Numbered from the stretch's first letter, positions 1 through 64,000 are shown. The stretch is DNA of 64,000 nt from Eledone cirrhosa (GCA_964016885.1 OZ024744.1:133486001-133550000), one strand, 5' to 3'. Translations and numbers: made by a program. Notes: generated by a model from the sequence alone, not told the origin.

Positions 1-2244
1 GGTTAAGTTAAGTTGGGGTTAAATTAAGTTGGGGTTAAATTAAGTTGGGGTTAAGTTAAGTTGGGGGTAAGTTAAGTTGGGGGCAAGTTAAGTTGGGGTT
101 AATTTAAGTTGGGGTTAAATTAAGTTGGGGTTAAGTTAAGTTGGGGTTAAGTTAAGTGGTGGTTATGTTAAGTTGGGGTTAAGTTAAGTTGGGGTTGAGT
201 TAAGTTGGGGTTGAGTGAAGTTGGGGTTAAGTTAAGTTGGGGTTAATTTATGTTGGGTTTAAGTTAAGTCGGGGTTAAGTTAAGTTGGGGTTGAGTTAAG
301 TTGGGGTTAATTTAAGTTGGGGCTAAGTTAATTTGTGGTTAAGTTAAGTTGGGGTTAAGTTAAGTTGGGGTTAAGTTAAGTTGGGGTTAAGTTAGGTTGT
401 GGTTAATTTAAGTTGGGTCTAATTAAGTTGGGGTTAAGTTAAGTTGGGGTTAAGTTAAGTTGGGGTGGAGTTAATTTGGGGTTAACTTAAGTTGGGGGTA
501 CTTAAGTTGGGTTTAAGTTAAGTGGGGTTAAGTTAAGTTGGGGTTAAGTTAAGTTGGGGTTAAGTTAAGTTGGGGGTAAGTTAAGTTGGGGGTAAGTTAA
601 GTTGGGGTTAATTTAAGTTGGGTCAAATTAAGTTGGGGTTAATTTAAGTTGGGGTTAAGTTAAGTTGGAGTTAAATTAAGTTGGGGTTAAGTTAAGTTGG
701 GGTTAAATTAAGTTGGGGTTAAGTTAAGTTGGGGTTAAGTTAAGTTGGGGTTAAGTTAAGTTGGGGGTAAGTTAAGTTGGTGGTAAGTTAAGTTGGGGGT
801 AAGTTAAGATGGGGTTAAGTTAAGTTGGGGTTAAGTTAATTTGGGGTTAGGGTTAAGTTAAGTTGGGTTGAGTTAAGTTGGGGTTAAATTAAGATGGGGT
901 TAAGTTAAGTTGGGGTTAAGTTGGGGTTAAGTTAAGTTAGGGTTAAGTTAAGTTGGGGTTAAGTTGAGTTGGGGTTAAGTTAAGTTGCGGTTAATTTAAG
1001 TTGGGGTTAATTTAAGTTGGGGTTAAGTTAAGTTGGGGTGAAGTTAAGTTGGGGTTAAGTTAAGTTGGGGTTAAGTTAAGTTGGGGTTTAGTTAAGTTGG
1101 GGTTAAATTAAGTTGGGGTTAAGTTAAGTTGGGGTTAAGTTAAGTTGGGGTTAAGTTAAGATGGGGTTAAGTTAAGTTGGGGTTAAGTTGGGGTTAAGTT
1201 AAGTTAGGGTTAAGTTAAGTTGGGGTTGAGTTAAGTTGGGGTTAAGTTAAGTGGTGGTTATGTTAAGTTGGGGTTAAGTTAAGTTGGGGTTAATTTAAAT
1301 TGGGGTTAAGTTAACTTTGTGGTTAAGTTAAGTTGGGGTTAAGTTAAGTTGGGGTTAAGTTAAGTTGGGGCTGAGTTAAGTTGGGGATGAGTGAAGTTGG
1401 GGTTAAGTTAAGTTGGGGTTAAGTTAAGTTGGCGTTAAGTTAAGTTGGGTTTGAGTTAAGTTGGGGTTGAGTTAATTTAGGGTTAAGTTAAGTTGGGGTT
1501 AAGTTAAGTTGGGTTTCAGTTAAGTTGGGGTTAAGTTAAGTTGGGGTCAAGTTAAGTTGGGGTTAAGTTAAGTTGGGGTTAAGTCAAGTTGGGGTTAAGT
1601 TAAGTTAGGGTTAATTTAGTTGGGGTTAAGTTAAGTTGGGGCTAAGTTAATTTGGGGCTAAGTTAAGTTGGGGCTAAGTTAAGTTGGGGTTAAGTTAAGT
1701 TGGGATTAAGTTAAGGTGGGGTTAATTTAAGTTGGGGTCAACTTAAATTGGGGTTAAGTTAAGTTGGGGTTAAGTTAAGTTGGGGTTAAATTAAGTTGGG
1801 GTTAAGTTAAGTTGGGGTTAAGTTAAGTTGGGGCTAAGTTAAGTTGGGCTGAGTTAAGTTGGGGCTGAGTTAAGTTGGGGTTAAGTTAAGTTGGGGTTGA
1901 GTTAAGTTGGGGTTAAGTTAAGTTGGGGTTAAGTTAAGTTGGGGTTAAGTTGGGGTTAAGTTAAGTTAGGGTTAAGTTAAGTTGGGGTTGAGTTAAGTTG
2001 GGGTTAAGTTAAGTGGTGGTTATGTTAAGTTGGGGTTAAGTTAAGTTGGGGTTAATTTAAATTGGGGTTAAGTTAACTTTGTGGTTAAGTTAAGTTGGGC
2101 TTAAGTTAAGTTGGGGTTCAGTTAAGTTGGTGTTAAGTTAAATTGGGGTTAAGTTAAGTTGGGGTTAAGTTAAGTTGGGGTTAAGTTAAGTTGGGGTTAA
2201 GTTAGATTGTGGTTAAGTTAAGTTGGGGTTAAGTTAAGTTGGCG

Positions 2245-5200
2245 TTAAGTTAAGTTGGGGTTAAGTTAAGTTGGGGGTAAGTTAAGTTGGGGGTAAGTTA
2301 AGTTGGGGTTAATTTAAGTTGGGTCAAATTAAGTTGGGGTTAAGTTAAGTTGGGGTTAAGTTAAGTTGGCGTTAAATTAAGTTGGGGTTAAGTTAAGTTG
2401 GGGTTAAATTAAGTTGGGGTTAAGTTAAGTTGGGGTTAAGTTAAGTTGGGGTTAAGTTAAGTTGGGGGTAAGTTAAGTTGGTGGTAAGTTAAGTTGGGGG
2501 TAAGTTAAGATGGGGTAAGTTAAGTTGGGTTTAAGTTAATTTGGGGTTAAGTTAGGGTTAAGTTAAGTTGGGGTTGAGTTAAGTTGGGGTTAAGTTAAGT
2601 TGGGGTTATGTTAAATTGGAGTTAAGTTAAGTTGGGGTTAAGTTGAGTTGGGGTTCAGTTAAGTTGCGGTTGATTTAAGTTGGGGTTAAGTTAAGTTGGG
2701 GTTAAGTTAAGTTGGGGTTAAGTTAAGTTGGGGTTAATTTAAGTTGGGGTTAAGTTAAGTTGGGGTTAAGTTAAGTTGGGGTTAAGTTAGTTTGGGGTTA
2801 AGTTAAGTTGGGGTTAAATTAAGTTGGGGTTAAGTTAAGTTGGGGTTAAGTTAAGTTGGGGTTGAGTTAAGTTGGGGTTGAGTTAATTTGGGGTTGACTT
2901 AAGTTGGGGGTACTTAAGTAGGATTTAAGTTAAGTGGGGTTAAGTTAGGTTGTGGTTAAGTTAAGTTGGGGGTAAGTTAAGTTGGGGGTAAGTTAAGTTG
3001 GGGTTAATTTAAGTTGGGTCTAATTAAGTTGGGGTTAAGTTAAGTTGGGGTTAAGTTAAGTTGGGGTTAAATTAAGTTGGGGTTAAGTTAAGTTGAGGTT
3101 AAATTAAGTTGGGGTTAAGTTAAGTTGGGGTTAAGTTAAGTTGGGGTTAAGTTAAGTTGGGGTCAAGTTAAGTGGTGGTTATGTTAAGTTGGGGTTAAGT
3201 TAAGTTGGGGTTGAGTTAAGTTGGGGTTGAGTTAAGTTGGGGTTGAGTTAAGTTGGGGTTGAGTGAAGTTGGGGTTAAGTTAAGTTGGGGTTAATTTATG
3301 TTGGGGTTAAGTTAAGTTGGGGTTAAGTTAAGTTGGGGTTAAGTTAAGTTGGGGTTAAGTTAAATTGGGGTTGAGTTAAGTTGGGGTTGAGTTAATTTAG
3401 GGTTAAGTTAAGTTGGGGTTAAGTTAAGTTGGGTTTAAGTTAAGTTGGGGTTAAATTAAGTTGGGGTTAAGTTAAGTTGGGGGTAAGTTAAGTTGGTGTT
3501 AAGTTAAGTTGGGGTTAAGTTAAGTTGGGGTTGAATTAAGTTGGGGTTAAGTTAAGTTGGGGTTAAGTTAAGTTGGGGTTAATTTAAATTGGGGTTTAGT
3601 TAAGTTGGGGTTAAGTTAAGTTGGGTTTATATTAAGTTGGGGTTAAGTTAAGTTGGGGTTAAGTCAAGTTGGGGTTCAGTTAAGTTGCGGTTAATTTAAG
3701 TTGGGGTTAAGTTAAGTTGGGGTTAAGTTAAGTTGGGGTTAAGTTAAGTTGGGGTTAAGTTAAGTTGGGGTTAAGTTAAGTTGGGGGAAAGTTAAGTTGG
3801 GGGTAAGTTAAGTTGGGGGTAAGTTAAGTTGGGGTTAAGTTAAGTTGGGGTTAAGTTAAGTTAGGGTTAAGTTAAGTTGGGGTTGAGTTAAGTTGGGGTT
3901 AAGTTAAGTTGGGGTTATGTTAAGTTGGGGTTAAGTTAAGTTGCGGTTAAGTTAAGTTGGGGTTAAGTTAAGTTGGGGTTAAGTTAAATTGGGGTTAAGT
4001 TAAGTTGCGGTTAAGTTAAGTTGGGGTTAAGTTAAGTTGGGGTTAATTTAAGTTGGGGTTAAGTTAAGTTGCGGGTGATTTAAGTTGGGGTTAAGTTAAG
4101 TTGGGGTTAAGTTAAGTTGGGGTTAAGTTAAGTTAGGGTTAAGTTAAGTTGGGGTTGAGTTAAGTTGGGGTTAAGTTAAGTTGGGGTTATGTTAAGTTGG
4201 GGTTAAGTTAAGTTGCGGTTAAGTTAAGTTGGGGTTAAGTTAAGTTGGGGTTAAGTTAAATTGGGGTTAAGTTAAGTTGGGGTTAAGTTAAGTTGGGGTT
4301 AAGTTAAGTTGGGGTTAAGTTAGATTGTGGTTAAGTTAACTTGGGGTTAAGTTAAGTTGGGGTTAAGTTAAGTTGGGGTTAAGTTGAGGCGGGGTTAAGT
4401 TGAGTTGGGGTTAAGTTAAGTTGGGGTTAAGTTAAGTTCGGGTTAACTTAAGTTGGGGGTACTTAAGTTGGGTTTAAGTTAAGTGGGGTTAAGTTAAGTT
4501 GGGGTTAAGTTATGTTGGGGTTAAGTTAAGTTGGGGTTAAGTTAGGTTGTGGTTAAGTTAAGTTGGGGGTAAGTTAAGTTGGGGGTAAGTTAAGTTGGGG
4601 TTAATTTAAGTTGGGTCTAATTAAGTTGGGGTTAAGTTAAGTTGGGGTTAAGTTAAGTTGGGGTTGAGTTAATTTGGGGTTAACTTAAGTTGGGGGTACT
4701 TAAGTTGGGTTTAAGTTAAGTTGGGTTAAGTTAAGTTGGGGTTAAGTTAAGTTGGGGTTAAGTTAAGTTGGGGGTAAGTTAAGTTGGGGGTAAGTTAAGT
4801 TGGGGTTAATTTAAGTTGGGTCAAATTAAGTTGGGGTTAATTTAAGTTGGGGTTAAGTTAAGTTGGGGTTAAATTAAGTTGGGGTTAAGTTAAGTTGGGG
4901 TTAAATTAAGTTGGGGTTAAGTTAAGTTGGGGTTAAGTTAAGTGGGGGTTAAGTTAAGTTGGGGTTGAGTTAAGTTGGGGTTAAGTTAAGTTGGGATTAA
5001 GTTAAGTTGGGGTTAAGTTAAGTTGGGGTTAAGTTAAGTTGGGGTTTAGTTAAGTTGGGGTTCAGTTAAGTTGGGGTTAAGTTAAGTTTGGGTTAAGTTG
5101 GGGTTAAATTAATTTGGGGTTAAGTTAATTTGGGGTTTAGTTAAGTTAGGGTTAAGTTAAGTTGGGGTTAATTTAAGTTGGGGTTAAGTTAAGTTGCGGG

Positions 5201-8200
5201 TGATTTAAGTTGGGGTTAAGTTAAGTTGGGGTTAAGTTAAGTTGGGGTTAAGTTGGGGTTAAGTTAAGTTGGGGGAAAGTTAAGTTGGGGGTAAGTTAAT
5301 TTGGGGGTAAGTTAAGTTGGGGTTAAGCTAAGTTGGGGTTAAGTTAAGTTAGGGTTAAGTTGGGGTTGAGTTAAGTTGGGGTTAAGTTAAGTTGGGGTTA
5401 TGTTAAGTTGGGGTTAAGTTAAGTTGCGGTTAAGTTAAGTTGGGGTTAAGTTAAGTTGCGGTTAAGTTAAATTGGGGTTAAGTTAAGTTGGGGTTAAGTT
5501 AAGTTGGGGTTAAGTTAAGTTGGGGTTAAGTTAGATTGTGGTTAAGTTAAGTTGGGGTTAAGTTAAGTTGGGGTTAAGTTAAGTTGGGGTTAAGTTAAGG
5601 CGGGGTTAAGTTGAGTTGGGGTTAAGTTAAGTTGGGGTTAAGTAAAGTTGGGGTTAAGTTAAGTTGTGGTTAAGTTAAGTTGGGGTTAAGTTAAGTTGGG
5701 GTTAAATTAAGTTGGGGTTAAATTAAGTTGGGGTTAAGTTAAGTTGGGGGTAAGTTAAGTTGGGGGCAAGTTAAGTTGGGGTTAAGTTAAGTTGGGGTTA
5801 AATTAAGTTGGGGTTAAGTTAAGTTGGGGTTAAGTTAAGTTGCGGTTAAGTTAAGTTGGGGTTAACTTAAGTTGGGGGTACTTAAGTTGGGTTTAAGTTA
5901 AGTGGGGTTAAGTTAAGTTGGGGTTAAGTTAAGTAGGGGTTAAGTTAAGTTGGGGTTAAGTTAGGTTGTGGTTAAGTTAAGTTGGGGGTAAGTTAAGTTG
6001 GGGGTAAGTTAAGTTGGGGTTAATTTAAGTTGGGTCTAATTAAGTTGGGGTTAAGTTAAGTTGGGGTTAAGTTTAGTTGGGGTTGAGTTAATTTGGGGTT
6101 AACTTAAGTTGGGGGTACTTAAGTTGGGTTTAAGTTAAGTGGGGTTAAGTTAAGTTGGGGTTAAGTTAAGTTGGGGTTAAGTTAAGTTGGGGGTAAGTTA
6201 AGTTGGGGGTAAGTTAAGTTGGGTCAAATTAAGTTGGGGTTAATTTAAGTTGGGGTTAAGCTAAGTTGGGGTTAAATTAAGTTGGGGTTAAGTTAAGTTG
6301 GGGGTAAGTTAAGTTGGTGGGAAGTTAAGTTGTGGGTAAGTTAAGATGGGGTTAAGTTAAGTTGGGGTTAAGTTAATTTGGGGTTAAGTTAAGTTGGGGG
6401 TAAGTTAAGTTGGTGGTAAGTTAAGTTGTGGGTAAGTTAAGATGGGGTTAAGTTAAGTTGGGGTTAAGTTAATTTGGGGTTAAGTTAGGGTTAAGTTAAG
6501 TTGGGTAGAGTTAAGTTGGGGTTAAATTAAGTTGGGGTTAAGTTAAGTTGGGGTTAAGTTAAGTTGGGGTTAAGTTAGGTTGTGGTTAAGTTAAGTTGGG
6601 GGTAAGTTAAGTTGGGGGTAAGTTAAGTTGGGGTTTATTTAAGTTGGGTCTAATTAAGTTGGGGTTAAGTTAAGTTGGGGTTAAGTTAAGTTGGGGTTAA
6701 ATTAAGTTGGGGTTAAGTTAAGTTGAGGTTAAATTAAGTTGGGGTTAAGTTAAGTTGGGGTTAAGTTAAGTTGGGGTTAAGTTAAGTTGGGGTTAAATTA
6801 AGTTGGGGTTAAATTAAGTTGGGGTTAAGTTAAGTTGGGGGTAAGTTAAGTTGGGGGCAAGTTAAGTTGGGGTTAAGTTAAGTTGGGGTTAAATTAAGTT
6901 GGGGTTAAGTTAAGTTGGGGTTAAGTTAAGTGGTGGTTATGTTAAGTTGGGGTTAAGTTAAGTTGGGGTTGAGTTAAGTTGGGGTTGAGTGAAGTTGGGG
7001 TTAAGTTAAGTTGGGGTTAATTTATGTTGGGGTTAAGTTAAGTCGGGGTTAAGTTAAGTTGGGGTTGAGTTAAGTTGGGGTTAATTTAAGTTTGGGTTAA
7101 GTTAAGTTGGGGTTAAGTTAAGGCGGGGTTAAGTTGAGTTGGGGTTAAGTTAAGTTGGGGTTAAGTTAAGTTGGGGTTGAGTTAATTTGGGGTTAACTTA
7201 AGTTGGGGGTACTTAAGTTGGGTTTAAGTTAAGTGGGGTTAAGTTAAGTTGGGGTTAAGTTAAGTTGGGGTTAAGTTAAGTTGGGGTTAAGTTATGTTGT
7301 GGTTAAGTTAAGTTGGGGGTAAGTTAAGTTGGGGGTAAGTTAAGTTGGGGTTAATTTAAGTTGGGTCTAATTAAGTTGGGGTTAAGTTAAGTTGGGGTTA
7401 AGTTAAGTTGGGGTTGAGTTAATTTGGGGTTAACTTAAGTTGGGGGTACTTAAGTTGGGTTTAAGTTAAGTGGGGTTAAGTTAAGTTGGGGTTAAGTTAA
7501 GTTGGGGTTAAGTTAAGTTGGGGGTAAGTTAAGTTGGGGGTAAGTTAAGTTGGGGTTAATTTAAGTTGGGTCAAATTAAGTTGGGGTTAAGTTAAGTTGG
7601 GGTTAAGTTAAGTTGGCGTTAAATTAAGTTGGGGTTAAGTTAAGTTGGGGTTAAATTAAGTTGGGGTTAAGTTAAGTTGGGGTTAAGTTAAGTTGGGGTT
7701 AAGTTAAGTTGGGGGTAAGTTAAGTTGGTGGTAAGTTAAGTTGGGGGTAAGTTAAGATGGGGTAAGTTAAGTTGGGTTTAAGTTAATTTGGGGTTAAGTT
7801 AGGGTTAAGTTAAGTTGGGGTTGAGTTAAGTTGGGGTTAAGTTAAGTTGGGGTTATGTTAAATTGGAGTTAAGTTAAGTTGGGGTTAAGTTGAGTTGGGG
7901 TTCAGTTAAGTTGCGGTTGATTTAAGTTGGGGTTAAGTTAAGTTGGGGTTAAGTTAAGTTGGGGTTAAGTTAAGTTGGGGTTAATTTAAGTTGGGGTTAA
8001 GTTAAGTTGGGGTTAAGTTAAGTTGGGGTTAAGTTAGTTTGGGGTTAAGTTAAGTTGGGGTTAAATTAAGTTGGGGTTAAGTTAAGTTGGGGTTAAGTTA
8101 AGTTGGGGTTGAGTTAAGTTGGGGTTGAGTTAATTTGGGGTTGACTTAAGTTGGGGGTACTTAAGTAGGATTTAAGTTAAGTGGGGTTAAGTTAGGTTGT

Positions 8201-11200
8201 GGTTAAGTTAAGTTGGGGGTAAGTTAAGTTGGGGGTAAGTTAAGTTGGGGTTAATTTAAGTTGGGTCTAATTAAGTTGGGGTTAAGTTAAGTTGGGGTTA
8301 AGTTAAGTTGGGGTTAAATTAAGTTGGGGTTAAGTTAAGTTGAGGTTAAATTAAGTTGGGGTTAAGTTAAGTTGGGGTTAAGTTAAGTTGGGGTTAAGTT
8401 AAGTTGGGGTCAAGTTAAGTGGTGGTTATGTTAAGTTGGGGTTAAGTTAAGTTGGGGTTGAGTTAAGTTGGGGTTGAGTTAAGTTGGGGTTGAGTTAAGT
8501 TGGGGTTGAGTGAAGTTGGGGTTAAGTTAAGTTGGGGTTAATTTATGTTGGGGTTAAGTTAAGTTGGGGTTAAGTTAAGTTGGGGTTAAGTTAAGTTGGG
8601 GTTAAGTTAAATTGGGGTTGAGTTAAGTTGGGGTTGAGTTAATTTAGGGTTAAGTTAAGTTGGGGTTAAGTTAAGTTGGGTTTAAGTTAAGTTGGGGTTA
8701 AATTAAGTTGGGGTTAAGTTAAGTTGGGGGTAAGTTAAGTTGGTGTTAAGTTAAGTTGGGGTTAAGTTAAGTTGGGGTTGAATTAAGTTGGGGTTAAGTT
8801 AAGTTGGGGTTAAGTTAAGTTGGGGTTAATTTAAATTGGGGTTTAGTTAAGTTGGGGTTAAGTTAAGTTGGGTTTATATTAAGTTGGGGTTAAGTTAAGT
8901 TGGGGTTAAGTCAAGTTGGGGTTCAGTTAAGTTGCGGTTAATTTAAGTTGGGGTTAAGTTAAGTTGGGGTTAAGTTAAGTTGGGGTTAAGTTAAGTTGGG
9001 GTTGAGTTAAGTTGGGGTTAAGTTAAGTTGGGGGAAAGTTAAGTTGGGGGTAAGTTAAGTTGGGGGTAAGTTAAGTTGGGGTTAAGTTAAGTTGGGGTTA
9101 AGTTAAGTTAGGGTTAAGTTAAGTTGGGGTTGAGTTAAGTTGGGGTTAAGTTAAGTTGGGGTTATGTTAAGTTGGGGTTAAGTTAAGTTGCGGTTAAGTT
9201 AAGTTGGGGTTAAGTTAAGTTGGGGTTAAGTTAAATTGGGGTTAAGTTAAGTTGCGGTTAAGTTAAGTTGGGGTTAAGTTAAGTTGGGGTTAATTTAAGT
9301 TGGGGTTAAGTTAAGTTGCGGGTGATTTAAGTTGGGGTTAAGTTAAGTTGGGGTTAAGTTAAGTTGGGGTTAAGTTAAGTTAGGGTTAAGTTAAGTTGGG
9401 GTTGAGTTAAGTTGGGGTTAAGTTAAGTTGGGGTTATGTTAAGTTGGGGTTAAGTTAAGTTGCGGTTAAGTTAAGTTGGGGTTAAGTTAAGTTGGGGTTA
9501 AGTTAAATTGGGGTTAAGTTAAGTTGGGGTTAAGTTAAGTTGGGGTTAAGTTAAGTTGGGGTTAAGTTAGATTGTGGTTAAGTTAACTTGGGGTTAAGTT
9601 AAGTTGGGGTTAAGTTAAGTTGGGGTTAAGTTGAGGCGGGGTTAAGTTGAGTTGGGGTTAAGTTAAGTTGGGGTTAAGTTAAGTTCGGGTTAACTTAAGT
9701 TGGGGGTACTTAAGTTGGGTTTAAGTTAAGTGGGGTTAAGTTAAGTTGGGGTTAAGTTATGTTGGGGTTAAGTTAAGTTGGGGTTAAGTTAGGTTGTGGT
9801 TAAGTTAAGTTGGGGGTAAGTTAAGTTGGGGGTAAGTTAAGTTGGGGTTAATTTAAGTTGGGTCTAATTAAGTTGGGGTTAAGTTAAGTTGGGGTTAAGT
9901 TAAGTTGGGGTTGAGTTAATTTGGGGTTAACTTAAGTTGGGGGTACTTAAGTTGGGTTTAAGTTAAGTTGGGTTAAGTTAAGTTGGGGTTAAGTTAAGTT
10001 GGGGTTAAGTTAAGTTGGGGGTAAGTTAAGTTGGGGGTAAGTTAAGTTGGGGTTAATTTAAGTTGGGTCAAATTAAGTTGGGGTTAATTTAAGTTGGGGT
10101 TAAGTTAAGTTGGGGTTAAATTAAGTTGGGGTTAAGTTAAGTTGGGGTTAAATTAAGTTGGGGTTAAGTTAAGTTGGGGTTAAGTTAAGTGGGGGTTAAG
10201 TTAAGTTGGGGTTGAGTTAAGTTGGGGTTAAGTTAAGTTGGGATTAAGTTAAGTTGGGGTTAAGTTAAGTTGGGGTTAAGTTAAGTTGGGGTTTAGTTAA
10301 GTTGGGGTTCAGTTAAGTTGGGGTTAAGTTAAGTTTGGGTTAAGTTGGGGTTAAATTAATTTGGGGTTAAGTTAATTTGGGGTTTAGTTAAGTTAGGGTT
10401 AAGTTAAGTTGGGGTTAATTTAAGTTGGGGTTAAGTTAAGTTGCGGGTGATTTAAGTTGGGGTTAAGTTAAGTTGGGGTTAAGTTAAGTTGGGGTTAAGT
10501 TGGGGTTAAGTTAAGTTGGGGGAAAGTTAAGTTGGGGGTAAGTTAATTTGGGGGTAAGTTAAGTTGGGGTTAAGCTAAGTTGGGGTTAAGTTAAGTTAGG
10601 GTTAAGTTGGGGTTGAGTTAAGTTGGGGTTAAGTTAAGTTGGGGTTATGTTAAGTTGGGGTTAAGTTAAGTTGCGGTTAAGTTAAGTTGGGGTTAAGTTA
10701 AGTTGGGGTTAAGTTAAATTGGGGTTAAGTTAAGTTGGGGTTAAGTTAAGTTGGGGTTAAGTTAAGTTGGGGTTAAGTTAGATTGTGGTTAAGTTAAGTT
10801 GGGGTTAAGTTAAGTTGGGGTTAAGTTAAGTTGGGGTTAAGTTAAGGCGGGGTTAAGTTGAGTTGGGGTTAAGTTAAGTTGGGGTTAAGTAAAGTTGGGG
10901 TTAAGTTAAGTTGTGGTTAAGTTAAGTTGGGGTTAAGTTAAGTTGGGGTTAAATTAAGTTGGGGTTAAATTAAGTTGGGGTTAAGTTAAGTTGGGGGTAA
11001 GTTAAGTTGGGGGCAAGTTAAGTTGGGGTTAAGTTAAGTTGGGGTTAAATTAAGTTGGGGTTAAGTTAAGTTGGGGTTAAGTTAAGTTGCGGTTAAGTTA
11101 AGTTGGGGTTAACTTAAGTTGGGGGTACTTAAGTTGGGTTTAAGTTAAGTGGGGTTAAGTTAAGTTGGGGTTAAGTTAAGTAGGGGTTAAGTTAAGTTGG

Positions 11201-11250
11201 GGTTAAGTTAGGTTGTGGTTAAGTTAAGTTGGGGGTAAGTTAAGTTGGGG
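2245..11250 (+). repeat. Direct duplication of about 3.76 kb: ~2245-6003 copied at ~7492-11250 (offset 5247)
   Basis: Rare markers at a constant offset of 5247: GGCGTTAAATT (C 2370/7617), TAGGATTT (G 2921/8168), GGGTTTATATT (3623/8870), TTGAGGCGGGG (4384/9631), TTAGGTTGTGG (5961/11208). Confidence 0.9.
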
Positions 11251-14200
11251 TTAAGTTAAGTTGGGGTTAATTTATGTTGGGGTTAAGTTAAGTTGGGGTT
11301 AAGTTAAGTTGGGGTTAAGTTAAGTTGGGGTTAAGTTAAATTGGGGTTGAGTTAAGTTGGGGTTGAGTTAATTTAGGGTTAAGTTAAGTTGGGGTTAAGT
11401 TAAGTTGGGTTTAAGTTAAGTTGGGGTTAAATTAAGTTGGGGTTAAGTTAACTTGGGGGTAAGTTAAGTTGGTGTTAAGTTAAGTTGGGGTTAAGTTAAG
11501 TTGGGGTTGAATTAAGTTGGGGTTAAGTTAAGTTGGGGTTAAGTTAAGTTGGGGTTAATTTAAATTGGGGTTTAGTTAAGTTGGGGTTAAGTTAAGTTGG
11601 GTTTATATTAAGTTGGGGTTAAGTTAAGTTGGGGTTAAGTCAAGTTGGGGTTCAGTTAAGTTGCGGTTAATTTAAGTTGGGGTTAAGTTAAGTTGGGGTT
11701 AAGTTAAGTTGGGGTTAAGTTAAGTTGGGGTTAAGTTAAGTTGGGGTTAAGTTAAGTTGGGGGAAAGTTAAGTTGGGGGTAAGTTAAGTTGGGGGTAAGT
11801 TAAGTTGGGGTTAAGTTAAGTTGGGGTTAAGTTAAGTTAGGGTTAAGTTAAGTTGGGGTTGAGTTAAGTTGGGGTTAAGTTAAGTTGGGGTTATGTTAAG
11901 TTGGGGTTAAGTTAAGTTGCGGTTAAGTTAAGTTGGGGTTAAGTTAAGTTGGGGTTAAGTTAAATTGGGGTTAAGTTAAGTTGCGGTTAAGTTAAGTTGG
12001 GGTTAAGTTAAGTTGGGGTTAATTTAAGTTGGGGTTAAGTTAAGTTGCGGGTGATTTAAGTTGGGGTTAAGTTAAGTTGGGGTTAAGTTAAGTTGGGGTT
12101 AAGTTAAGTTAGGGTTAAGTTAAGTTGGGGTTGAGTTAAGTTGGGGTTAAGTTAAGTTGGGGTTATGTTAAGTTGGGGTTAAGTTAAGTTGCGGTTAAGT
12201 TAAGTTGGGGTTAAGTTAAGTTGGGGTTAAATTAAGTTGGGGTTAAATTAAGTTGGGATTAAGTTAAGTTGGGGGTAAGTTAAGTTGGGGGCAAGTTAAG
12301 TTGGGGTTAAGTTAAGTTGGGGTTAAATTAAGTTGGGGTTAAGTTAAGTTGGGGTTAAGTTAAGTGGTGGTTATGTTAAGTTGGGGTTAAGTTAAGTTGG
12401 GGTTGAGTTAAGTTGGGGTTGAGTGAAGTTGGGGTTAAGTTAAGTTGGGGTTAATTTATGTTGGGGTTAAGTTAAGTCGGGGTTAAGTTAAGTTGGGGTT
12501 GAGTTAAGTTGGGGTTAATTTAAGTTTGGGTTAAGTTAAGTTGGGGTTAAGTTAAGGCGGGGTTAAGTTGAGTTGGGGTTAAGTTAAGTTGGGGTTAAGT
12601 TAAGTTGGGGTTGAGTTAATTTGGGGTTAACTTAAGTTGGGGGTACTTAAGTTGGGTTTAAGTTAAGTGGGGTTAAGTTAAGTTGGGGTTAAGTTAAGTT
12701 GGGGTTAAGTTAAGTTGGGGTTAAGTTATGTTGTGGTTAAGTTAAGTTGGGGGTAAGTTAAGTTGGGGGTAAGTTAAGTTGGGGTTAATTTAAGTTGGGT
12801 CTAATTAAGTTGGGGTTAAGTTAAGTTGGGGTTAAGTTAAGTTGGGGTTGAGTTAATTTGGGGTTAACTTAAGTTGGGGGTACTTAAGTTGGGTTTAAGT
12901 TAAGTGGGGTTAAGTTAAGTTGGGGTTAAGTTAAGTTGGGGTTAAGTTAAGTTGGGGGTAAGTTAAGTTGGGGGTAAGTTAAGTTGGGGTTAATTTAAGT
13001 TGGGTCAAATTAAGTTGGGGTTAAGTTAAGTTGGGGTTAAGTTAAGTTGGCGTTAAATTAAGTTGGGGTTAAGTTAAGTTGGGGTTAAATTAAGTTGGGG
13101 TTAAGTTAAGTTGGGGTTAAGTTAAGTTGGGGTTAAGTTAAGTTGGGGGTAAGTTAAGTTGGTGGTAATTTAAGTTGGGGGTAAGTTAAGATGGGGTAAG
13201 TTAAGTTGGGTTTAAGTTAATTTGGGGTTAAGTTAGGGTTAAGTTAAGTTGGGGTTGAGTTAAGTTGGGGTTAAGTTAAGTTGGGGTTATGTTAAATTGG
13301 AGTTAAGTTAAGTTGGGGTTAAGTTGAGTTGGGGTTCAGTTAAGTTGCGGTTGATTTAAGTTGGGGTTAAGTTAAGTTGGGGTTAAGTTAAGTTGGGGTT
13401 AAGTTAAGTTGGGGTTAATTTAAGTTGGGGTTAAGTTAAGTTGGGGTTAAGTTAAGTTGGGGTTAAGTTAGTTTGGGGTTAAGTTAAGTTGGGGTTAAAT
13501 TAAGTTGGGGTTAAGTTAAGTTGGGGTTAAGTTAAGTTGGGGTTGAGTTAAGTTGGGGTTGAGTTAATTTGGGGTTGACTTAAGTTGGGGGTACTTAAGT
13601 AGGATTTAAGTTAAGTGGGGTTAAGTTAGGTTGTGGTTAAGTTAAGTTGGGGGTAAGTTAAGTTGGGGGTAAGTTAAGTTGGGGTTAATTTAAGTTGGGT
13701 CTAATTAAGTTGGGGTTAAGTTAAGTTGGGGTTAAGTTAAGTTGGGGTTAAATTAAGTTGGGGTTAAGTTAAGTTGAGGTTAAATTAAGTTGGGGTTAAG
13801 TTAAGTTGGGGTTAAGTTAAGTTGGGGTTAAGTTAAGTTGGGGTCAAGTTAAGTGGTGGTTATGTTAAGTTGGGGTTAAGTTAAGTTGGGGTTGAGTTAA
13901 GTTGGGGTTGAGTTAAGTTGGGGTTGAGTTAAGTTGGGGTTGAGTGAAGTTGGGGTTAAGTTAAGTTGGGGTTAATTTATGTTGGGGTTAAGTTAAGTTG
14001 GGGTTAAGTTAAGTTGGGGTTAAGTTAAGTTGGGGTTAAGTTAAATTGGGGTTGAGTTAAGTTGGGGTTGAGTTAATTTAGGGTTAAGTTAAGTTGGGGT
14101 TAAGTTAAGTTGGGTTTAAGTTAAGTTGGGGTTAAATTAAGTTGGGGTTAAGTTAAGTTGGGGGTAAGTTAAGTTGGTGTTAAGTTAAGTTGGGGTTAAG

Positions 14201-17200
14201 TTAAGTTGGGGTTGAATTAAGTTGGGGTTAAGTTAAGTTGGGGTTAAGTTAAGTTGGGGTTAATTTAAATTGGGGTTTAGTTAAGTTGGGGTTAAGTTAA
14301 GTTGGGTTTATATTAAGTTGGGGTAAAGTTAAGTTGGGGTTAAGTCAAGTTGGGGTTCAGTTAAGTTGCGGTTAATTTAAGTTGGGGTTAAGTTAAGTTG
14401 GGGTTAAGTTAAGTTGGGGTTAAGTTAAGTTGGGGTTAAGTTAAGTTGGGGTTAAGTTAAGTTGGGGGAAAGTTAAGTTGGGGGTAAGTTAAGTTGGGGG
14501 TAAGTTAAGTTGGGGTTAAGTTAAGTTGGGGTTAAGTTAAGTTAGGGTTAAGTTAAGTTGGGGTTGAGTTAAGTTGGGGTTAAGTTAAGTTGGGGTTATG
14601 TTAAGTTGGGGTTAAGTTAAGTTGCGGTTAAGTTAAGTTGGGGTTAAGTTAAGTTGGGGTTAAGTTAAATTGGGGTTAAGTTAAGTTGCGGTTAAGTTAA
14701 GTTGGGGTTAAGTTAAGTTGGGGTTAATTTAAGTTGGGGTTAAGTTAAGTTGCGGGTGATTTAAGTTGGGGTTAAGTTAAGTTGGGGTTAAGTTAAGTTG
14801 GGGTTAAGTTAAGTTAGGGTTAAGTTAAGTTGGGGTTGAGTTAAGTTGGGGTTAAGTTAAGTTGGGGTTATGTTAAGTTGGGGTTAAGTTAAGTTGCGGT
14901 TAAGTTAAGTTGGGGTTAAGTTAAGTTGGGGTTAAGTTAAATTGGGGTTAAGTTAAGTTGGGGTTAAGTTAAGTTGGGGTTAAGTTAAGTTGGGGTTAAG
15001 TTAGATTGTGGTTAAGTTAACTTGGGGTTAAGTTAAGTTGGGGTTAAGTTAAGTTGGGGTTAAGTTGAGGCGGGGTTAAGTTGAGTTGGGGTTAAGTTAA
15101 GTTGGGGTTAAGTTAAGTTCGGGTTAACTTAAGTTGGGGGTACTTAAGTTGGGTTTAAGTTAAGTGGGGTTAAGTTAAGTTGGGGTTAAGTTATGTTGGG
15201 GTTAAGTTAAGTTGGGGTTAAGTTAGGTTGTGGTTAAGTTAAGTTGGGGGTAAGTTAAGTTGGGGGTAAGTTAAGTTGGGGTTAATTTAAGTTGGGTCTA
15301 ATTAAGTTGGGGTTAAGTTAAGTTGGGGTTAAGTTAAGTTGGGGTTGAGTTAATTTGGGGTTAACTTAAGTTGGGGGTACTTAAGTTGGGTTTAAGTTAA
15401 GTTGGGTTAAGTTAAGTTGGGGTTAAGTTAAGTTGGGGTTAAGTTAAGTTGGGGGTAAGTTAAGTTGGGGGTAAGTTAAGTTGGGGTTAATTTAAGTTGG
15501 GTCAAATTAAGTTGGGGTTAATTTAAGTTGGGGTTAAGTTAAGTTGGGGTTAAATTAAGTTGGGGTTAAGTTAAGTTGGGGTTAAATTAAGTTGGGGTTA
15601 AGTTAAGTTGGGGTTAAGTTAAGTGGGGGTTAAGTTAAGTTGGGGTTGAGTTAAGTTGGGGTTAAGTTAAGTTGGGATTAAGTTAAGTTGGGGTTAAGTT
15701 AAGTTGGGGTTAAGTTAAGTTGGGGTTTAGTTAAGTTGGGGTTCAGTTAAGTTGGGGTTAAGTTAAGTTTGGGTTAAGTTGGGGTTAAATTAATTTGGGG
15801 TTAAGTTAATTTGGGGTTTAGTTAAGTTAGGGTTAAGTTAAGTTGGGGTTAATTTAAGTTGGGGTTAAGTTAAGTTGCGGGTGATTTAAGTTGGGGTTAA
15901 GTTAAGTTGGGGTTAAGTTAAGTTGGGGTTAAGTTGGGGTTAAGTTAAGTTGGGGGAAAGTTAAGTTGGGGGTAAGTTAATTTGGGGGTAAGTTAAGTTG
16001 GGGTTAAGCTAAGTTGGGGTTAAGTTAAGTTAGGGTTAAGTTGGGGTTGAGTTAAGTTGGGGTTAAGTTAAGTTGGGGTTATGTTAAGTTGGGGTTAAGT
16101 TAAGTTGCGGTTAAGTTAAGTTGGGGTTAAGTTAAGTTGGGGTTAAGTTAAATTGGGGTTAAGTTAAGTTGGGGTTAAGTTAAGTTGGGGTTAAGTTAAG
16201 TTGGGGTTAAGTTAGATTGTGGTTAAGTTAAGTTGGGGTTAAGTTAAGTTGGGGTTAAGTTAAGTTGGGGTTAAGTTAAGGCGGGGTTAAGTTGAGTTGG
16301 GGTTAAGTTAAGTTGGGGTTAAGTAAAGTTGGGGTTAAGTTAAGTTGTGGTTAAGTTAAGTTGGGGTTAAGTTAAGTTGGGGTTAAATTAAGTTGGGGTT
16401 AAATTAAGTTGGGGTTAAGTTAAGTTGGGGGTAAGTTAAGTTGGGGGCAAGTTAAGTTGGGGTTAAGTTAAGTTGGGGTTAAATTAAGTTGGGGTTAAGT
16501 TAAGTTGGGGTTAAGTTAAGTTGCGGTTAAGTTAAGTTGGGGTTAACTTAAGTTGGGGGTACTTAAGTTGGGTTTAAGTTAAGTGGGGTTAAGTTAAGTT
16601 GGGGTTAAGTTAAGTAGGGGTTAAGTTAAGTTGGGGTTAAGTTAGGTTGTGGTTAAGTTAAGTTGGGGGTAAGTTAAGTTGGGGTTAAGTTAAGTTGGGG
16701 TTAATTTATGTTGGGGTTAAGTTAAGTTGGGGTTAAGTTAAGTTGGGGTTAAGTTAAGTTGGGGTTAAGTTAAATTGGGGTTGAGTTAAGTTGGGGTTGA
16801 GTTAATTTAGGGTTAAGTTAAGTTGGGGTTAAGTTAAGTTGGGTTTAAGTTAAGTTGGGGTTAAATTAAGTTGGGGTTAAGTTAAGTTGGGGGTAAGTTA
16901 AGTTGGTGTTAAGTTAAGTTGGGGTTAAGTTAAGTTGGGGTTGAATTAAGTTGGGGTTAAGTTAAGTTGGGGTTAAGTTAAGTTGGGGTTAATTTAAATT
17001 GGGGTTTAGTTAAGTTGGGGTTAAGTTAAGTTGGGTTTATATTAAGTTGGGGTTAAGTTAAGTTGGGGTTAAGTCAAGTTGGGGTTCAGTTAAGTTGCGG
17101 TTAATTTAAGTTGGGGTTAAGTTAAGTTGGGGTTAAGTTAAGTTGGGGTTAAGTTAAGTTGGGGTTAAGTTAAGTTGGGGTTAAGTTAAGTTGGGGGAAA

Positions 17201-17664
17201 GTTAAGTTGGGGGTAAGTTAAGTTGGGGGTAAGTTAAGTTGGGGTTAAGTTAAGTTGGGGTTAAGTTAAGTTAGGGTTAAGTTAAGTTGGGGTTGAGTTA
17301 AGTTGGGGTTAAGTTAAGTTGGGGTTATGTTAAGTTGGGGTTAAGTTAAGTTGCGGTTAAGTTAAGTTGGGGTTAAGTTAAGTTGGGGTTAAGTTAAATT
17401 GGGGTTAAGTTAAGTTGCGGTTAAGTTAAGTTGGGGTTAAGTTAAGTTGGGGTTAATTTAAGTTGGGGTTAAGTTAAGTTGCGGGTGATTTAAGTTGGGG
17501 TTAAGTTAAGTTGGGGTTAAGTTAAGTTGGGGTTAAGTTAAGTTAGGGTTAAGTTAAGTTGGGGTTGAGTTAAGTTGGGGTTAAGTTAAGTTGGGGTTAT
17601 GTTAAGTTGGGGTTAAGTTAAGTTGCGGTTAAGTTAAGTTGGGGTTAAGTTAAGTTGGGGTTAA
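6770..17664 (+). repeat. Tandem duplication of a 5434-bp block (~6770-12230 followed by ~12204-17664)
   Basis: Offset 5434 for GGGGGCAAG (C 6858/12292), TAGGATTT (8168/13602), TTGAGGCGGGG (9631/15065) and GGGTTTATATT (8870/14304 and 11599/17033). Confidence 0.9.
8506..12230 (+). repeat. 2729-bp period duplication: ~8506-9501 recopied at ~11235-12230; same junction repeated at ~16670
   Basis: Offset 2729 for TTTATG (8542/11271), GGGTTTATATT (8870/11599; 14304/17033) and TTGAGGCGGGG (15065/17794). Confidence 0.85.
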
Positions 17665-35300: not shown

Positions 35301-36860
35301 AAGTTAGGGTTAAGTTAAGTTGGGGTTAATTTAAGTTGGGGTTAAGTTAAGTTGCGGGTGATTTAAGTTGGGGTTAAGTTAAGTTGGGGTTAAGTTAAGT
35401 TGGGGTTAAGTTAAGTTGGGGGTAAGTTAAGTTGGGGGTAAGTTAAGTTGGGATTAAGTTAAGTTGGGGTTAAGTTAACTTAGGGTTAAGTTGGGGTTGA
35501 GTTAAGTTGGGGTTAAGTTAAGTTGGGGTTATGTTAAGGTGGGGTTAAGTTAAGTTGCGGTTAAGTTAAGTTGGGGTTAAGTTAAGTTGGGGTTAAGTTA
35601 AATTGGGGTTCAGTTAAGTTGGGGTTAAGTTAAGTTGGGGTTAAGTTAAGTTGGGGTTAAGTTAGATTGTGGTTAAGTTAAGTTGGGGTTAAGTTAAGTT
35701 GGGGTTAAGTTAAGTTGGGGTTAAGTTAAGGCGGGGTTAAGTTGAGTTGGGGTTAAGTTAAGTTGGGGTTAAGTTAAGTTGGGGTTAACTTAAGTTGGGG
35801 GTACTTAAGTTGGGTTTAAGTTAAGTGGGGTTAAGTTAAGTTGGGGTTAAGTTAAGTTGGGGTTAAGTTAAGTTGGGGTTAAGTTAGGTTGTGGTTAAGT
35901 TAAGTTGGGGGTAAGTTAAGTTGGGGTTAATTTAAGTTGGGTCTAATTAAGTTGGGGTTAAGTTAAGTTGGGGTTAAGTTAAGTTGGGGTTGAGTTAATT
36001 TGGGGTTAACTTAAGTTGGGGGTACTTAAGTTGGGTTTAAGTTAAGTGGGGTTAAATTAAGTTGGGGTTAAGTTAAGTTGGGGTTAAGTTAAGTTGGAGG
36101 TAAGTTAAGTTGGGGGTAAGTTAAGTTGGGGTTATTTTAAGTTGGGTCAAATTAAGTTGGGGTTAATTTAAGTTGGGGTTAAGTTAAGTTGGGGTTAAAT
36201 TAAGTTGGGGTTAAGTTAAGTTGGGGTTAAATTAAGTTGGGGTTAAGTTAAGTTGGGGTTAAATTAAGTTGGGGTTAAATTAAGTTGGGGTTAAGTTAAG
36301 TTGGGGGTAGGTTAAGTTGGGGGCAAGTTAAGTTGGGGTTAAATTAAGTTGGGGTTAAATTAAGTTGGGGTTAAGTTAAGTTGGGGTTAAGTTAAGTGGT
36401 GGTTATGTTAAGTTGGGGTTAAGTTAAGTTGGGGTTGAGTTAAGTTGGGGTTGAGTGAAGTTGGGGTTAAGTTAAGTTGGGGTTAATTTATGTTGGGGTT
36501 AAGTTAAGTCGGGGTTAAGTTAAGTTGGGGTTGAGTTAAGTTGGGGTTAATTTAAGTTGGGGCTAAGTTAATTTGTGGTTAAGTTAAGTTGGGGTTAAGT
36601 TAAGTTGGGGTTAAGTTAAGTTGGGGTTGAGTTAAGTTGGGGTTGAGATAATTTAGGGTTAAGTTAAGTTGGGGTTAAGTTAAGTTGGGTTTAAGTTAAG
36701 TTGGGGTTAAATTAAGTTGGGGTTAAGTTAAGTTGGAGGTAAGTTAAGTTGGGGGCAAGTTAAGTTGGGGTTAAGTTAAGTTGGGGTTGAATTAAGTTGG
36801 GGTTAAGTTAAGTTGGTGTTAACTTAAGTTGGGGTTTATTTAAGTTGGGGTTAATTAAGT
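27630..36860 (+). repeat. Tandem duplication of an approximately 4853-bp block (offset drops to 4836 after 1-bp and 16-bp deletions)
   Basis: Offset 4853 for GGTGGTTATG (27651/32504), GAGATAATTT (27901/32754), GTAAAG (28678/33531) and GGGATT (28929/33782). Offset 4836 for AACTTAGGG (30643/35479) and GAGATAATTT (31812/36648). Confidence 0.9.
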
Positions 36861-39800: not shown

Positions 39801-40040
39801 GTTATGTTAAGTTGGGGTTAAGTTAAGTTGCGGTTAAGTTAAGTTGGGGTTAAGTTAAGTTGGGGTTAAGTTAAATTGGGGTTAAGTTAAGTTGGGGTTA
39901 AGTTAAGTTGGGGTTAAGTTAAGTTGGGGTTAAGTTAGATTGTGGTTAAGTTAAGTTGGGGTTAAGTTAAGTTGGGGTTAAGTTAAGTTGGGGTTAAGTT
40001 AAGGCGGGGTTAAGTTGAGTTGGGGTTAAGTTAAGTTGGG
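35465..40040 (+). repeat. Tandem duplication of a 2286-bp block
   Basis: Offset 2286 for AACTTAGGG (35479/37765) and GAGATAATTT (36648/38934). Both copies share the deletion junction TTAATTAAGTTGGGTTTATATT (~36851/~39137). Confidence 0.9.
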
Positions 40041-40289
40041 GTTAAGTTAAGTTGGGGTTAACTTAAGTTGGGGGTACTTAAGTTGGGTTTAAGTTAAGTG
40101 GGGTTAAGTTAAGTTGGGGTTAAGTTAAGTTGGGGTTAAGTTAAGTTGGGGTTAAGTTAGGTTGTGGTTAAGTTAAGTTGGGGGTAAGTTAAGTTGGGGG
40201 TAAGTTAAGTTGGGGTTAATTTAAGTTGGGTCTAATTAAGTTGGGGTTAAATTAAGTTGGGGTTAAGTTAAGTTGAGGTTAAATTAAGT

Positions 40290-61830: not shown

Positions 61831-64000
61831 AAGTTAAGTTAGGGTTAAGTTAAGTTGGGGTTGAGTTAAGTTGGGGTTAAGTTAAGTTGGGGTTATGTTA
61901 AGTTGGGGTTAAGTTAAGTTGCGGTTAAGTTAAGTTGGGGTTAAGTTAAGTTGGGGTTAAGTTAAATTGGGGTTAAGTTAAGTTGGGGTTAATTTAAGTT
62001 GGGGTTAAGTTAAGTTGGGGTTAAGTTAAGGCGGGGTTAAGTTGAGTTGGGGTTAAGTTAAGTTGGGGTTAAGTTAAGTTGGGGTTAACTTAAGTTGGGG
62101 GTATTTAAGTTGGGTTTAAGTTAAGTGGGGTTAAGTTAAGTTGGGGTTAAGTTAAGTTGGGCTTAAGTTAAGTTGGGGTTAAGTTAGGTTGTGGTTAAGT
62201 TAAGTTGGGGGTAAGTTAAGTTGGGGTAAATTTAAGTTGGGTCTAATTAAGTTGGGGTTAAGTTAAGTTGGGGTTAAGTTAAGTTGGGGTTGAGTTAATT
62301 TGGGGTTAACTTAAGTTGGGGGTACTTAAGTTGGGTTTAAGTTAAGTGGGGTTAAGTTAAGTTGGGGTTAAGTTAAGTTGGGGTTAAGTTAAGTTGGTGG
62401 TAAGTTAAGTTGGGGGTAAGTTAAGTTGGGGTTAATTTAAGTTGGGTCAAATTAAGTTGGGGTTAATTTAAGTTGGGGTTAAGTTAAGTTGGGGTTAAAT
62501 TAAGTTGGGGTTAAGTTAAGTTGGGGTTAAATTAAGTTGGGGTTAAGTTAAGTTGGGGTTAAGTTAAGTGGGGGTTAACTTAAGTTGGGGGTAAGTTAAG
62601 TTGGTGGTAATTTAAGTTGGGGGTAAGTTAAGATGGGGTTAAGTTAAGTTGGGGTTAAGTTAATTTGGGGTTAAGTTAGGGTTAAATTAAGTTGGGTTGA
62701 GTTAAGTTGGGGTTAAATTAAGTTGGGGTTAAGTTAAGTTGGTGTTAAGTTAAGTTGGGGTTAAGTTAAGTTGGGGTTAAGTTAAGTTGGGGTTAAGTTA
62801 GGTTGTGGTTAAGTTAAGTTGGGGGTAAGTTAAGTTGGCGGTAAGTTAAGTTGGGGTTTATTTAAGTTGGGTCTAATTAAGTTGGGGTTAAGTTAAGTTG
62901 GGGTTAAGTTAAGTTGGGGTTAAATTAAGTTGGGGTTAAGCTAAGTTGAGGTTAAATTAAGTTGGGGTTAAGTTAAGTTGGGGTTAAGTTAAGTTGGGGT
63001 TAAGTTAAGTTGGGGTTAAATTAAGTTGGTGTTAAGTTAAGTTGGGGGTAAGTTAAGTTGGGGGCAAGTTAAGTTGGGGTTAAGTTAAGTTGGGGTTAAA
63101 TTAAGTTGGGGTTAAGTTAAGTTGGGGTTAAGTTAAGTGGTGGTTATGTTAAGTTGGGGTTAAGTTAAGTTGGGGTTGAGTTAAGTTGGGGTTGAGTGAA
63201 GTTGGGGTTAAGTTAAGTTGGGGTTAATTTATGTTGGGGTTAAGTTAAGTCGGGGTTAAGTTAAGTTGGGGTTGAGTTAAGTTGGGGTTAATTTAAGTTG
63301 GGGCTAAGTTAATTTGTGGTTAAGTTAAGTTGGGGTTAAGTTAAGTTGGGGTTAAGTTAAGTTGGGGTTGAGTTAAGTTGGGGTTGAGTTAATTTAGGGT
63401 TAAGTTAAGTTGGGGTTAAGTTAAGTTGGGTTTAAGTTAAGTTGGGGTTAAATTAAGTTGGGGTTAAGTTAAGGTGGGGGTAAGTTAAGTTGGGGGCAAG
63501 TTAAGTTGGGGTTAAGTTAAGTTGGGGTTTATTTAAGTTGGGGTTAATTAAGTTGGGGTTAAGTTAAGTTGGGGTTAAGTTAAGTTGGGGTTAATTTAAG
63601 TTGGGGTTTAGTTAAGTTGGGGTTAAGTTAAGTTGGGTTTATATTAAGTTGGGGTTAAGTTAAGTTGGGGTTAAGTTATGTTGGGGTTCAGTTAAGTTGC
63701 GGTTAATTTAAGTTGGGGTTAAGTTAAGTTGGGGTTAAGTTAAGTTGGGGTTAAGTTAAGTTGGGGTTAAGTTAAGTTGGTGTTAAGTTAAGTTGGGGCT
63801 AAGTTAAGTTGGGGCTGAGTTAAGTTGGGGCTGAGTTAAGTTGGGGTTAAGTTAAGTTGGGGTTGAGTTAAGTTGGGGTTTAGTTAAGTTGGGGTTAAGT
63901 TAAGTTGGGGTTAATTTAAGTTGGGGTTAAGTTAAGTTGCGGGTGATTTAAGTTGGGGTTAAGTTAAGTTGGGGTTAAGTTAAGTTGGGGTTAAGTTAAG

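What the first reader, a model, noticed from the sequence alone, without database searches (positions are those of the whole stretch)
1..64000. Compound telomere-like monomer (TTAAG)2TTGGGG in a >64 kb array: candidate recombination-maintained chromosome end or telomere-derived satellite
Seen: the monomer is built only from TT-initiated, G-ending submotifs, has no C on the + strand and keeps one orientation throughout. Established: the canonical insect telomere repeat is TTAGG; bumblebees and related aculeate Hymenoptera have compound ends mixing TTAGG with TTAGGTTGGGG; TTGGGG is the Tetrahymena repeat. TTAAG+TTAAGTTGGGG is exactly TTAGG+TTAGGTTGGGG with the same G>A change in both pentamers. 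Inference: this may be an undescribed telomeric repeat variant, or a satellite born from one. Point variants are inherited across multi-kb blocks, which telomerase would not reproduce, so this stretch was amplified by recombination or replication. If it is terminal, it would resemble the telomerase-independent satellite ends of Chironomus and Anopheles. A + strand G-rich orientation would point toward a chromosome end on the right.
Basis: partly seen in the sequence, partly recalled or inferred. Interest (0 to 1): 0.75.

Follow-up and report, generated by a model that had tools for sequence, protein, structure and literature searches.

The report
Giant internal octopod satellite, not telomere
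This 16-letter repeat fills an 8.4-million-base internal block of a chromosome in a likely octopus-type animal whose assembled telomeres are the ordinary TTAGGG repeat, so it is not a new telomere but satellite DNA that likely sits in centromere-region heterochromatin, likely descends from an older repeat next door and likely grows by local copying.

Summary
The 16-mer array is real, but it is not a chromosome end. The window lies in an 8.38-Mb block on contig C28 that stops 1.15 Mb before the contig end and reverses orientation internally. The genome is a coleoid cephalopod, likely an octopod, not an insect. Of 54 chromosome ends sampled, 10 are outward-facing TTAGGG and 0 carry the 16-mer; a TERT-like exon is present. 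C28 is likely the Z chromosome (two marker genes). Smaller arrays lie at the midpoints of C2 and C3 and on C18. The block's right edge runs in register into an older, related 32-mer (2 edits away; TTAGGG is 4 edits away, no closer than shuffles). That 32-mer abuts degenerate TTAGGG blocks on C8 and C14, so an indirect telomeric ancestry stays open. Exact multi-kb duplications are local, and one strand-switch junction has been copied at least 587 times. Best reading: an ordinary, probably pericentromeric satellite grown by local duplication; a centromere role is untested. This scan had already reported the same block from another window (e1-10311083).

The parts
1..64000 (+). Interior of the 16-bp satellite array (G-rich strand on +), 4034 monomers, 40% consensus; part of the block G000:C28:126,967,457-135,348,075
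   Evidence: place; block edges
9005..11451 (+). Longest exact internal duplication, copy 1 (2447 bp; partner 5434 bp downstream)
14439..16885 (+). Longest exact internal duplication, copy 2
35612..40050 (+). Near-perfect tandem duplication: 35612-37764 equals 37898-40050 (2153 bp, period 2286 bp)
28538..35296 (+). Exact 1906-bp duplication, 28538-30443 and 33391-35296 (lag 4853 bp)
2244..19413 (+). Cluster of overlapping exact duplications of 1.0-2.4 kb with lags of 2.7, 5.2, 5.4, 8.2, 10.7 and 13.4 kb (irregular higher-order structure, no fixed period)

Best explanation
The window is the interior of an 8.4-Mb internal satellite block on what is likely the Z chromosome of a likely octopod; it is not the telomere, it likely forms centromere-region heterochromatin, and it likely grows by local duplication of 2-13 kb segments. 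The monomer likely arose by slippage from the older 32-bp satellite that adjoins the block: one 18-base piece of the 32-mer minus two bases gives the 16-mer. A single strand switch at the TTAA palindrome likely flipped the young repeat, and that junction was then copied hundreds of times as a passenger while the block expanded, by unequal sister exchange or break-induced replication (inferred). Shown: position, edges, orientation changes, TTAGGG ends, local duplication, one shared junction. Inferred: order of descent, repair pathway, heterochromatin or centromere role.
For: Position: window at C28:133.49-133.55 Mb of 136.50; edges read at base level; other DNA distal in all samples from 135.35 Mb to the last 10 kb. 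Telomeres: 10 of 54 ends TTAGGG, 0 of 54 16-mer; TERT_C exon, 3 places on C27, E 2.2e-6, whose only 4 PDB matches are TERT. Local growth: 42 of 43 exact repeats of 500 bp or more have lags of 15 kb or less; 100-mers shared with the window are 45-62% at 50-90 kb distance and 0-20% in the other 26 C28 probes. One junction: 15 of 15 sampled strand-switch pivots, including the one at the right edge, carry the same variant monomer, against about 6% expected; 587 forward and 552 reverse exact pivot matches, none on C1-C27. Kinship: edit distance 2 to the 32-mer (1 of 600 shuffles as close) against 4 to TTAGGG (153 of 600); direct in-register junction. Centromere-region setting: family arrays at 50% of C2, 49% of C3, 51% of C8, 56% of C13, 50-52% of C14; octopod C-bands are mostly centromeric (PMC6160780, passages).
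Against: The 32-mer was chosen after it was seen beside the array, and the Bombus motif is also only 2 changes away, so distance alone does not prove descent. The direction 32-mer to 16-mer rests only on divergence (73% against 89% TRF matches). On C2, C3 and at C28:126.1 Mb the 16-mer is joined to a composite GC-richer repeat instead, which could be its true cradle. The family was found on only 7 of 27 chromosomes by exact patterns, C18 and C28 sites are not central, and C28 has other large satellites at 120-124 Mb. The block was sampled, not read whole. The C3 array ends at an assembly gap and one C18 array begins at one, so placement there depends on scaffolding. 44 of 54 ends, including the right end of C28, do not reach any telomere.
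Confidence: 0.7

Rival explanations
1. The 16-mer descends, through the 32-mer or directly, from interstitial TTAGGG arrays, making it a telomere-derived heterochromatic satellite. This is compatible with the best explanation and adds an earlier step.
For: On C3 the 610-kb 16-mer array abuts at least 36 kb of degenerate CCCTAA repeats. On C8 and C14 the 32-mer abuts degenerate TTAGGG blocks in which TTGGGG is among the commonest variants. The 32-mer is built of hexamers. Large pericentromeric telomere-like blocks are a known class (PMC6410037, passages).
Against: Likeness to TTAGGG does not exceed same-composition shuffles (16-mer 153 of 600; 32-mer 6 of 60). Only 2 of 4 viewed 32-mer/TTAGGG junctions share polarity and 0 of 2 16-mer/TTAGGG junctions on C3 do; the junctions are abrupt, with no graded intermediates. 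TTAGGG is only the fifth commonest hexamer form in the window (74 of 3701 full-length monomers).
Confidence: 0.4
2. The 16-mer began as a short internal tandem repeat of a composite, transposon-like element and escaped from it into free arrays, as oyster Cg170 did from non-autonomous Helentrons.
For: On C2 the 16-mer is a run of variable length (about 165-415 bp) inside a 520-bp unit with a 270-bp spacer, arrayed from 209.196 to at least 209.865 Mb. Related spacer sequence adjoins short 16-mer runs at C28:126.100 Mb and C3:184.746 Mb. The C28 composite is palindrome-rich and ends beside a Helitron-like 3' end (motif recognised from recall).
Against: 30 of 30 fetched copies of that 3' end share one downstream flank, so they are one insertion amplified in a larger repeat, not independent jumps. 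Neither edge of the C28 block is flanked by the spacer. The spacer search returned only C2 places among the 40 of 813 candidates scored.
Confidence: 0.25
3. The block is the working centromere of C28, with the kinetochore on the 16-mer itself.
For: Megabase size, rapid local homogenisation, related arrays at the midpoints of five autosomes, one cluster per chromosome except C18.
Against: No CENP-A or cytological data. 20 of 27 chromosomes show no exact match in the lists seen, and C28 carries other large satellites.
Confidence: 0.2
4. The 16-mer is a new telomeric repeat or a recombination-maintained chromosome end.
For: G-rich strand points towards the nearer contig end over most of the block; the right end of C28 does not reach a TTAGGG tract in the assembly.
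Against: 1.15 Mb of other DNA lies distal; internal inversions; 0 of 54 ends carry it and 10 of 54 carry TTAGGG; TERT-like exon present; TTAGGG is the reported octopus telomere (PMC6160780 and PMC13218726, passages citing Adachi et al. 2014).
Confidence: 0.02

Closest known systems
Simple-sequence pericentromeric satellites with irregular local higher-order repeats (for example human HSat2/3; recalled, not tested against a database)
   Same: Short monomer, megabase array, strong strand asymmetry, local block duplication, internal strand switches
   Different: Unrelated sequence; here one strand-switch junction is itself amplified at least 587 times
Heterochromatic interstitial telomeric sequences, het-ITS (PMC6410037, passages)
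   Same: G-rich telomere-like blocks away from ends, amplified without telomerase, mostly at mid-chromosome sites, adjoining degenerate TTAGGG
   Different: The monomer is not TTAGGG and is no closer to it than shuffles; no TTAGGG dimer occurs in the window
Oyster Cg170/HindIII satellite and Cg_HINE Helentron central repeats (PMC7492417, part 1 of 7 read; PMC12628747, passages)
   Same: A molluscan repeat present both as stand-alone arrays and as a short run inside a composite unit
   Different: No dispersed element with both termini was shown; the composite unit is itself tandemly arrayed; monomer 16 bp against about 166 bp
Bombus telomere repeat TTAGGTTGGGG (PMC9841428, passages)
   Same: Eleven bases of the monomer differ from it at one position
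   Different: That repeat is terminal, telomerase-made and insect; this one is internal and cephalopod, so the likeness is convergent

Membership tests
Telomeric repeat (telomerase-made) | Caps chromosome ends | tested here: not met
   0 of 54 sampled ends; 10 of 54 are TTAGGG; block ends 1.15 Mb before the contig end
Telomeric repeat (telomerase-made) | G strand runs outward without reversal | tested here: not met
   Minus-strand domain about 132.8-133.35 Mb and at least 587 pivots
Telomeric repeat (telomerase-made) | Uniform template-copied units, variants not inherited in blocks | tested here: not met
   40% consensus monomers; exact duplicates up to 2447 bp
Telomeric repeat (telomerase-made) | Matching telomerase RNA template | not tested
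   A template pattern would match the array itself; no search was made
Telomerase-independent satellite end (Chironomus/Anopheles type) | Terminal array in a lineage without short telomeric repeats and TERT | tested here: not met
   TTAGGG ends and a TERT-like exon present; definition recalled
Satellite DNA | Long head-to-tail non-coding array, concentrated at few loci, homogenised locally | tested here: met
Satellite DNA | Constitutive heterochromatin | not testable with these tools
   Needs C-banding, H3K9me3 or methylation data
Centromeric satellite | CENP-A loading or primary constriction | not testable with these tools
   No chromatin or cytological data
Centromeric satellite | One array on most chromosomes | tested here: inconclusive
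   16-mer or 32-mer on 7 of 27 chromosomes by exact patterns; diverged arrays and hits beyond the first 100 listed would be missed
het-ITS | Built of the organism's telomere repeat | tested here: not met
   Distance 4 from TTAGGG array, 153 of 600 shuffles as close; no TTAGGG dimer in the window
Helentron/Helitron central repeat | Dispersed copies with both element termini and distinct flanks | tested here: inconclusive
   30 of 30 fetched 3' ends share one flank; only 40 of 1795 candidates were scored
rDNA spacer-derived satellite | Monomer present in the intergenic spacer | tested here: not met
   Absent from 2 of 2 whole rDNA units read, C12 and C25

The most novel reading that the evidence does not exclude
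The block is the working centromere of the ancient cephalopod Z chromosome, and 16-mer, 32-mer and degenerate TTAGGG blocks are three preserved stages by which interstitial telomeric DNA turned into a centromeric satellite family that marks the midpoints of at least five autosomes; this would give the first sequence-defined cephalopod centromere.
Probability: 0.12. Interest if true: 0.65.

Novelty: new member of a known kind. Interest (0 to 1): 0.25.

Why it matters
As it stands this is an undescribed but ordinary satellite, and the telomere claim falls. Its value is as a probe. I found no paper describing a cephalopod centromeric satellite (listing only) or this monomer (listing only), so a repeat family at several chromosome midpoints and in an 8.4-Mb block on the likely Z is a concrete FISH and CENP-A target. 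The single junction copied at least 587 times is also a natural lineage marker for tracing how a megabase array grows.

Tried and rejected
rDNA spacer origin: suggested by scrambled rDNA pieces at C28:126.0-126.1 Mb; rejected, 0 of 2 whole units hold the 16-mer or the spacer. Helitron carriage: not shown, 30 of 30 ends share one flank. Z-only satellite: my reading; wrong, arrays exist on C2, C3 and C18, though C28 dominates. Structured RNA in the C2 unit: 0 Rfam matches at E up to 1 in 3 kb. TERT by PF12009: no match, uninformative. Z markers: PF16471 (SPAG9) no match; PRPS1-type exon on unplaced C1256 and a paralogue-like exon on C27, so 2 of 4 marker searches landed on C28, 1 on an unplaced contig and 1 found nothing. 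COX1 against PDB was uninformative for lineage. Sequence look-up of earlier notes and the 'near' look-up were empty. G-quadruplex: 0 motifs with loops up to 7, 699 with loops up to 12; not pursued.

Full report
Observation. The whole window is one tandem array of period 16 (4031.8 copies, 89% matches). A wrap-around alignment gives 4034 monomers of 203 types; 1614 are the consensus TTAAGTTAAGTTGGGG, 3701 are 16 bp long. The first pentamer is the variable part (12-18% change at positions 1, 3 and 5, against 0.5-7% elsewhere). The window holds 639 C, all from variants. It has 244 forward and 0 reverse exact trimers. Variants travel in blocks: 75% of the window lies in an exact duplicate of at least 200 bp, 12 duplicates exceed 1 kb, and 3 of 3 monomer shuffles have none.

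Place. The window is G000:C28:133,486,001-133,550,000; C28 is 136,499,333 bp. The block starts abruptly at 126,967,457 inside a decayed C2H2 zinc-finger repeat and ends at 135,348,075, 8.38 Mb in all and 1.15 Mb short of the contig end. Between the edges I sampled rather than read: about 30 probes showed the 16-mer everywhere except pieces of an AT-rich repeat at 132.4-132.8 Mb. Probes from 132.85 to 133.35 Mb are on the minus strand. Samples distal to the block, down to the last 10 kb, hold other repeats and ordinary DNA.

Organism and true telomere. The genome has molluscan haemocyanin genes with runs of seven units. One unit scores 650-659 bits against PDB 4yd9_C, 6r83 unit 8 and 1js8_A and at most 460 against the other single-unit entries; that the first three are squid and octopus, the others gastropod, and that seven units mark octopods is recalled. 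Both ends of all 27 chromosome-scale contigs were read (2-10 kb each): 10 of 54 are outward-facing TTAGGG, 0 of 54 carry the 16-mer, 44 reach no telomere. A TERT C-terminal exon occurs at three places on C27 (E 2.2e-6) and matches only TERT in PDB (best E 0.0056). TTAGGG is the motif reported for an octopus (passages of PMC6160780 and PMC13218726 citing Adachi et al. 2014, which I did not see). C28 stands out of size order and carries eIF5 and OCIA-domain exons, both listed as conserved Z-linked genes (PMC10925132, parts 1-2 of 5 and two supplement passages). Two other marker searches did not help. C28 is therefore likely Z; hemizygosity was not tested.

Distribution. Exact trimers number 26,931 forward and 2,975 reverse. 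Of 705 six-monomer runs, 8 are on C3, 22 on C18, none on other chromosomes before C28, and 675 on C28 or later contigs (first 70 listed, all C28); 32 of 32 eight-monomer runs are on C28. The C3 array spans 184,769,169-185,379,739 (49% of C3) and ends at a gap. On C2 (50%) the 16-mer is a variable run inside a 520-bp unit, arrayed over at least 0.67 Mb. One C18 array shares the zinc-finger junction of the C28 left edge with flanks 93-97% identical, which points to a duplicated segment.

Relatives. At the right edge the array switches strand, runs 279 bp and passes in register into a 23.6-kb array of a 32-mer (73% matches). The 16-mer is 2 edits from it (1 of 600 same-composition shuffles as close) and 4 edits from a TTAGGG array (153 of 600). 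The 32-mer also lies at 51% of C8, 56% of C13, 50-52% of C14 and 29-30% of C18 (100 of 167 and 28 of 28 hits listed). On C8 and C14 it abuts degenerate TTAGGG blocks, in the same polarity at 2 of 4 junctions viewed. On C3 the 16-mer abuts degenerate CCCTAA blocks in opposite polarity at 2 of 2 junctions. The same AT-rich repeat accompanies the family on C2, C13, C14, C18 and C28. These repeats form one recurring heterochromatin-like assemblage; five of seven chromosomes have it within 48-56% of their length (by hand, about 4e-4 for a uniform draw into a 44-56% band chosen after the fact).

Mechanism. Shown: duplications are local (42 of 43 exact repeats of 500 bp or more have lags up to 15 kb, median 5.4 kb), with no fixed higher-order period, and sharing of 100-mers with the window falls from 45-62% at 50-90 kb to 20% or less elsewhere, and to 0.1% or less on C3 and C18. 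Strand-switch pivots at the palindrome GGGG-TTAA-CCCC number between 587 and 1139, none on C1-C27; 15 of 15 sampled, including the right-edge one, carry the same variant monomer, so they descend from one event. Inferred: the 16-mer arose by slippage at the edge of the 32-mer, a template switch at TTAA flipped it, and unequal exchange or break-induced replication expanded it, carrying the pivot along. Inferred with less support: the block is pericentromeric; octopod C-bands are mostly centromeric.

Rivals. Indirect descent from interstitial TTAGGG (0.4) has adjacency for it and sequence statistics against it. Birth inside a transposon-like composite (0.25) fits C2 but no dispersed element was shown. 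A working centromere (0.2) is untested. A telomere (0.02) is refuted at assembly level. An rDNA spacer origin was rejected.

Comparison and novelty. It works like a simple-sequence pericentromeric satellite and passes the tests for satellite DNA; it fails those for telomere, telomerase-independent end, het-ITS and rDNA spacer repeat. The full monomer occurred in 0 papers of the library (listing; 9 papers hold only an 11-base part). Searches for cephalopod centromere or telomere satellites showed none by title (listings); subscription papers and bioRxiv supplements were not searchable. Other papers seen: PMC7492417 part 1 of 7; passages of PMC6410037, PMC9841428, PMC12628747 and bioRxiv 10.1101/2024.12.09.627507; some searches were listings only. 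What I saw of it does not mention the 32-mer link, the single amplified pivot or the midpoint pattern.

Verdict. Real feature, wrong main interpretation: a new member of a known kind, interest 0.25, useful mainly as a candidate probe for cephalopod centromeres.

Noticed in passing
G000:C28:135,348,075-135,371,668 (L179, L121, L190, L191); also C8 30.88-31.10 Mb, C13 26.35-26.46 Mb, C14 23.18-23.90 Mb, C18 12.84-13.25 Mb: Old hexamer-built 32-bp satellite family, mostly at chromosome midpoints and interleaved with degenerate TTAGGG blocks and an AT-rich repeat; a candidate pericentromeric marker.
   Followed up: partly
G000:C2:209.196-209.865 Mb (L072-L076, L128-L130, L242-L244): Very homogeneous (spacer 98-100% identical) array of a 520-bp composite unit at the exact middle of the second-largest chromosome; candidate young centromere or fusion-site satellite.
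   Followed up: partly
G000:C28:124.7-126.5 Mb (L096, L111, L113, L114, L142-L164, L181); also C18 6.73 Mb: Large irregular macro-repeat of scrambled rDNA pieces, a palindrome-rich 1583-bp composite repeat and a Helitron-like 3' end, copied near-identically at least 40 times.
   Followed up: partly
G000:C1:208.56-208.59 and 217.83-218.06 Mb: Large interstitial TTAGGG arrays near the middle of the largest chromosome; the four giant chromosomes may be fusions, not tested.
   Followed up: no
G000:C28:124.60-124.69 Mb: A further minus-strand 16-mer stretch with the same strand-switch pivot, 2.3 Mb proximal of the main block.
   Followed up: no
G000:C27:13.14, 14.25 and 14.73 Mb (L246-L248): The TERT-like exon occurs at three places with equal scores, suggesting a triplicated TERT region or an assembly duplication.
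   Followed up: no
G000:C19 right end (L062): The contig ends in another telomere-like pentamer satellite (TTAGC runs with TTAGG/ATAGC), while its left end is plain TTAGGG.
   Followed up: no
L207 (C8:30.882-30.887 Mb): Mirror arrangement of 32-mer, TTAGGG block, (TTAAA)n and GCGCATGC-rich repeats that looks like a swollen inverted-repeat element.
   Followed up: no
window 1-64000: The 11 bases TTAAGTTGGGG are far better conserved than the first pentamer; this may reflect shared duplication history or selection, not separated here.
   Followed up: no
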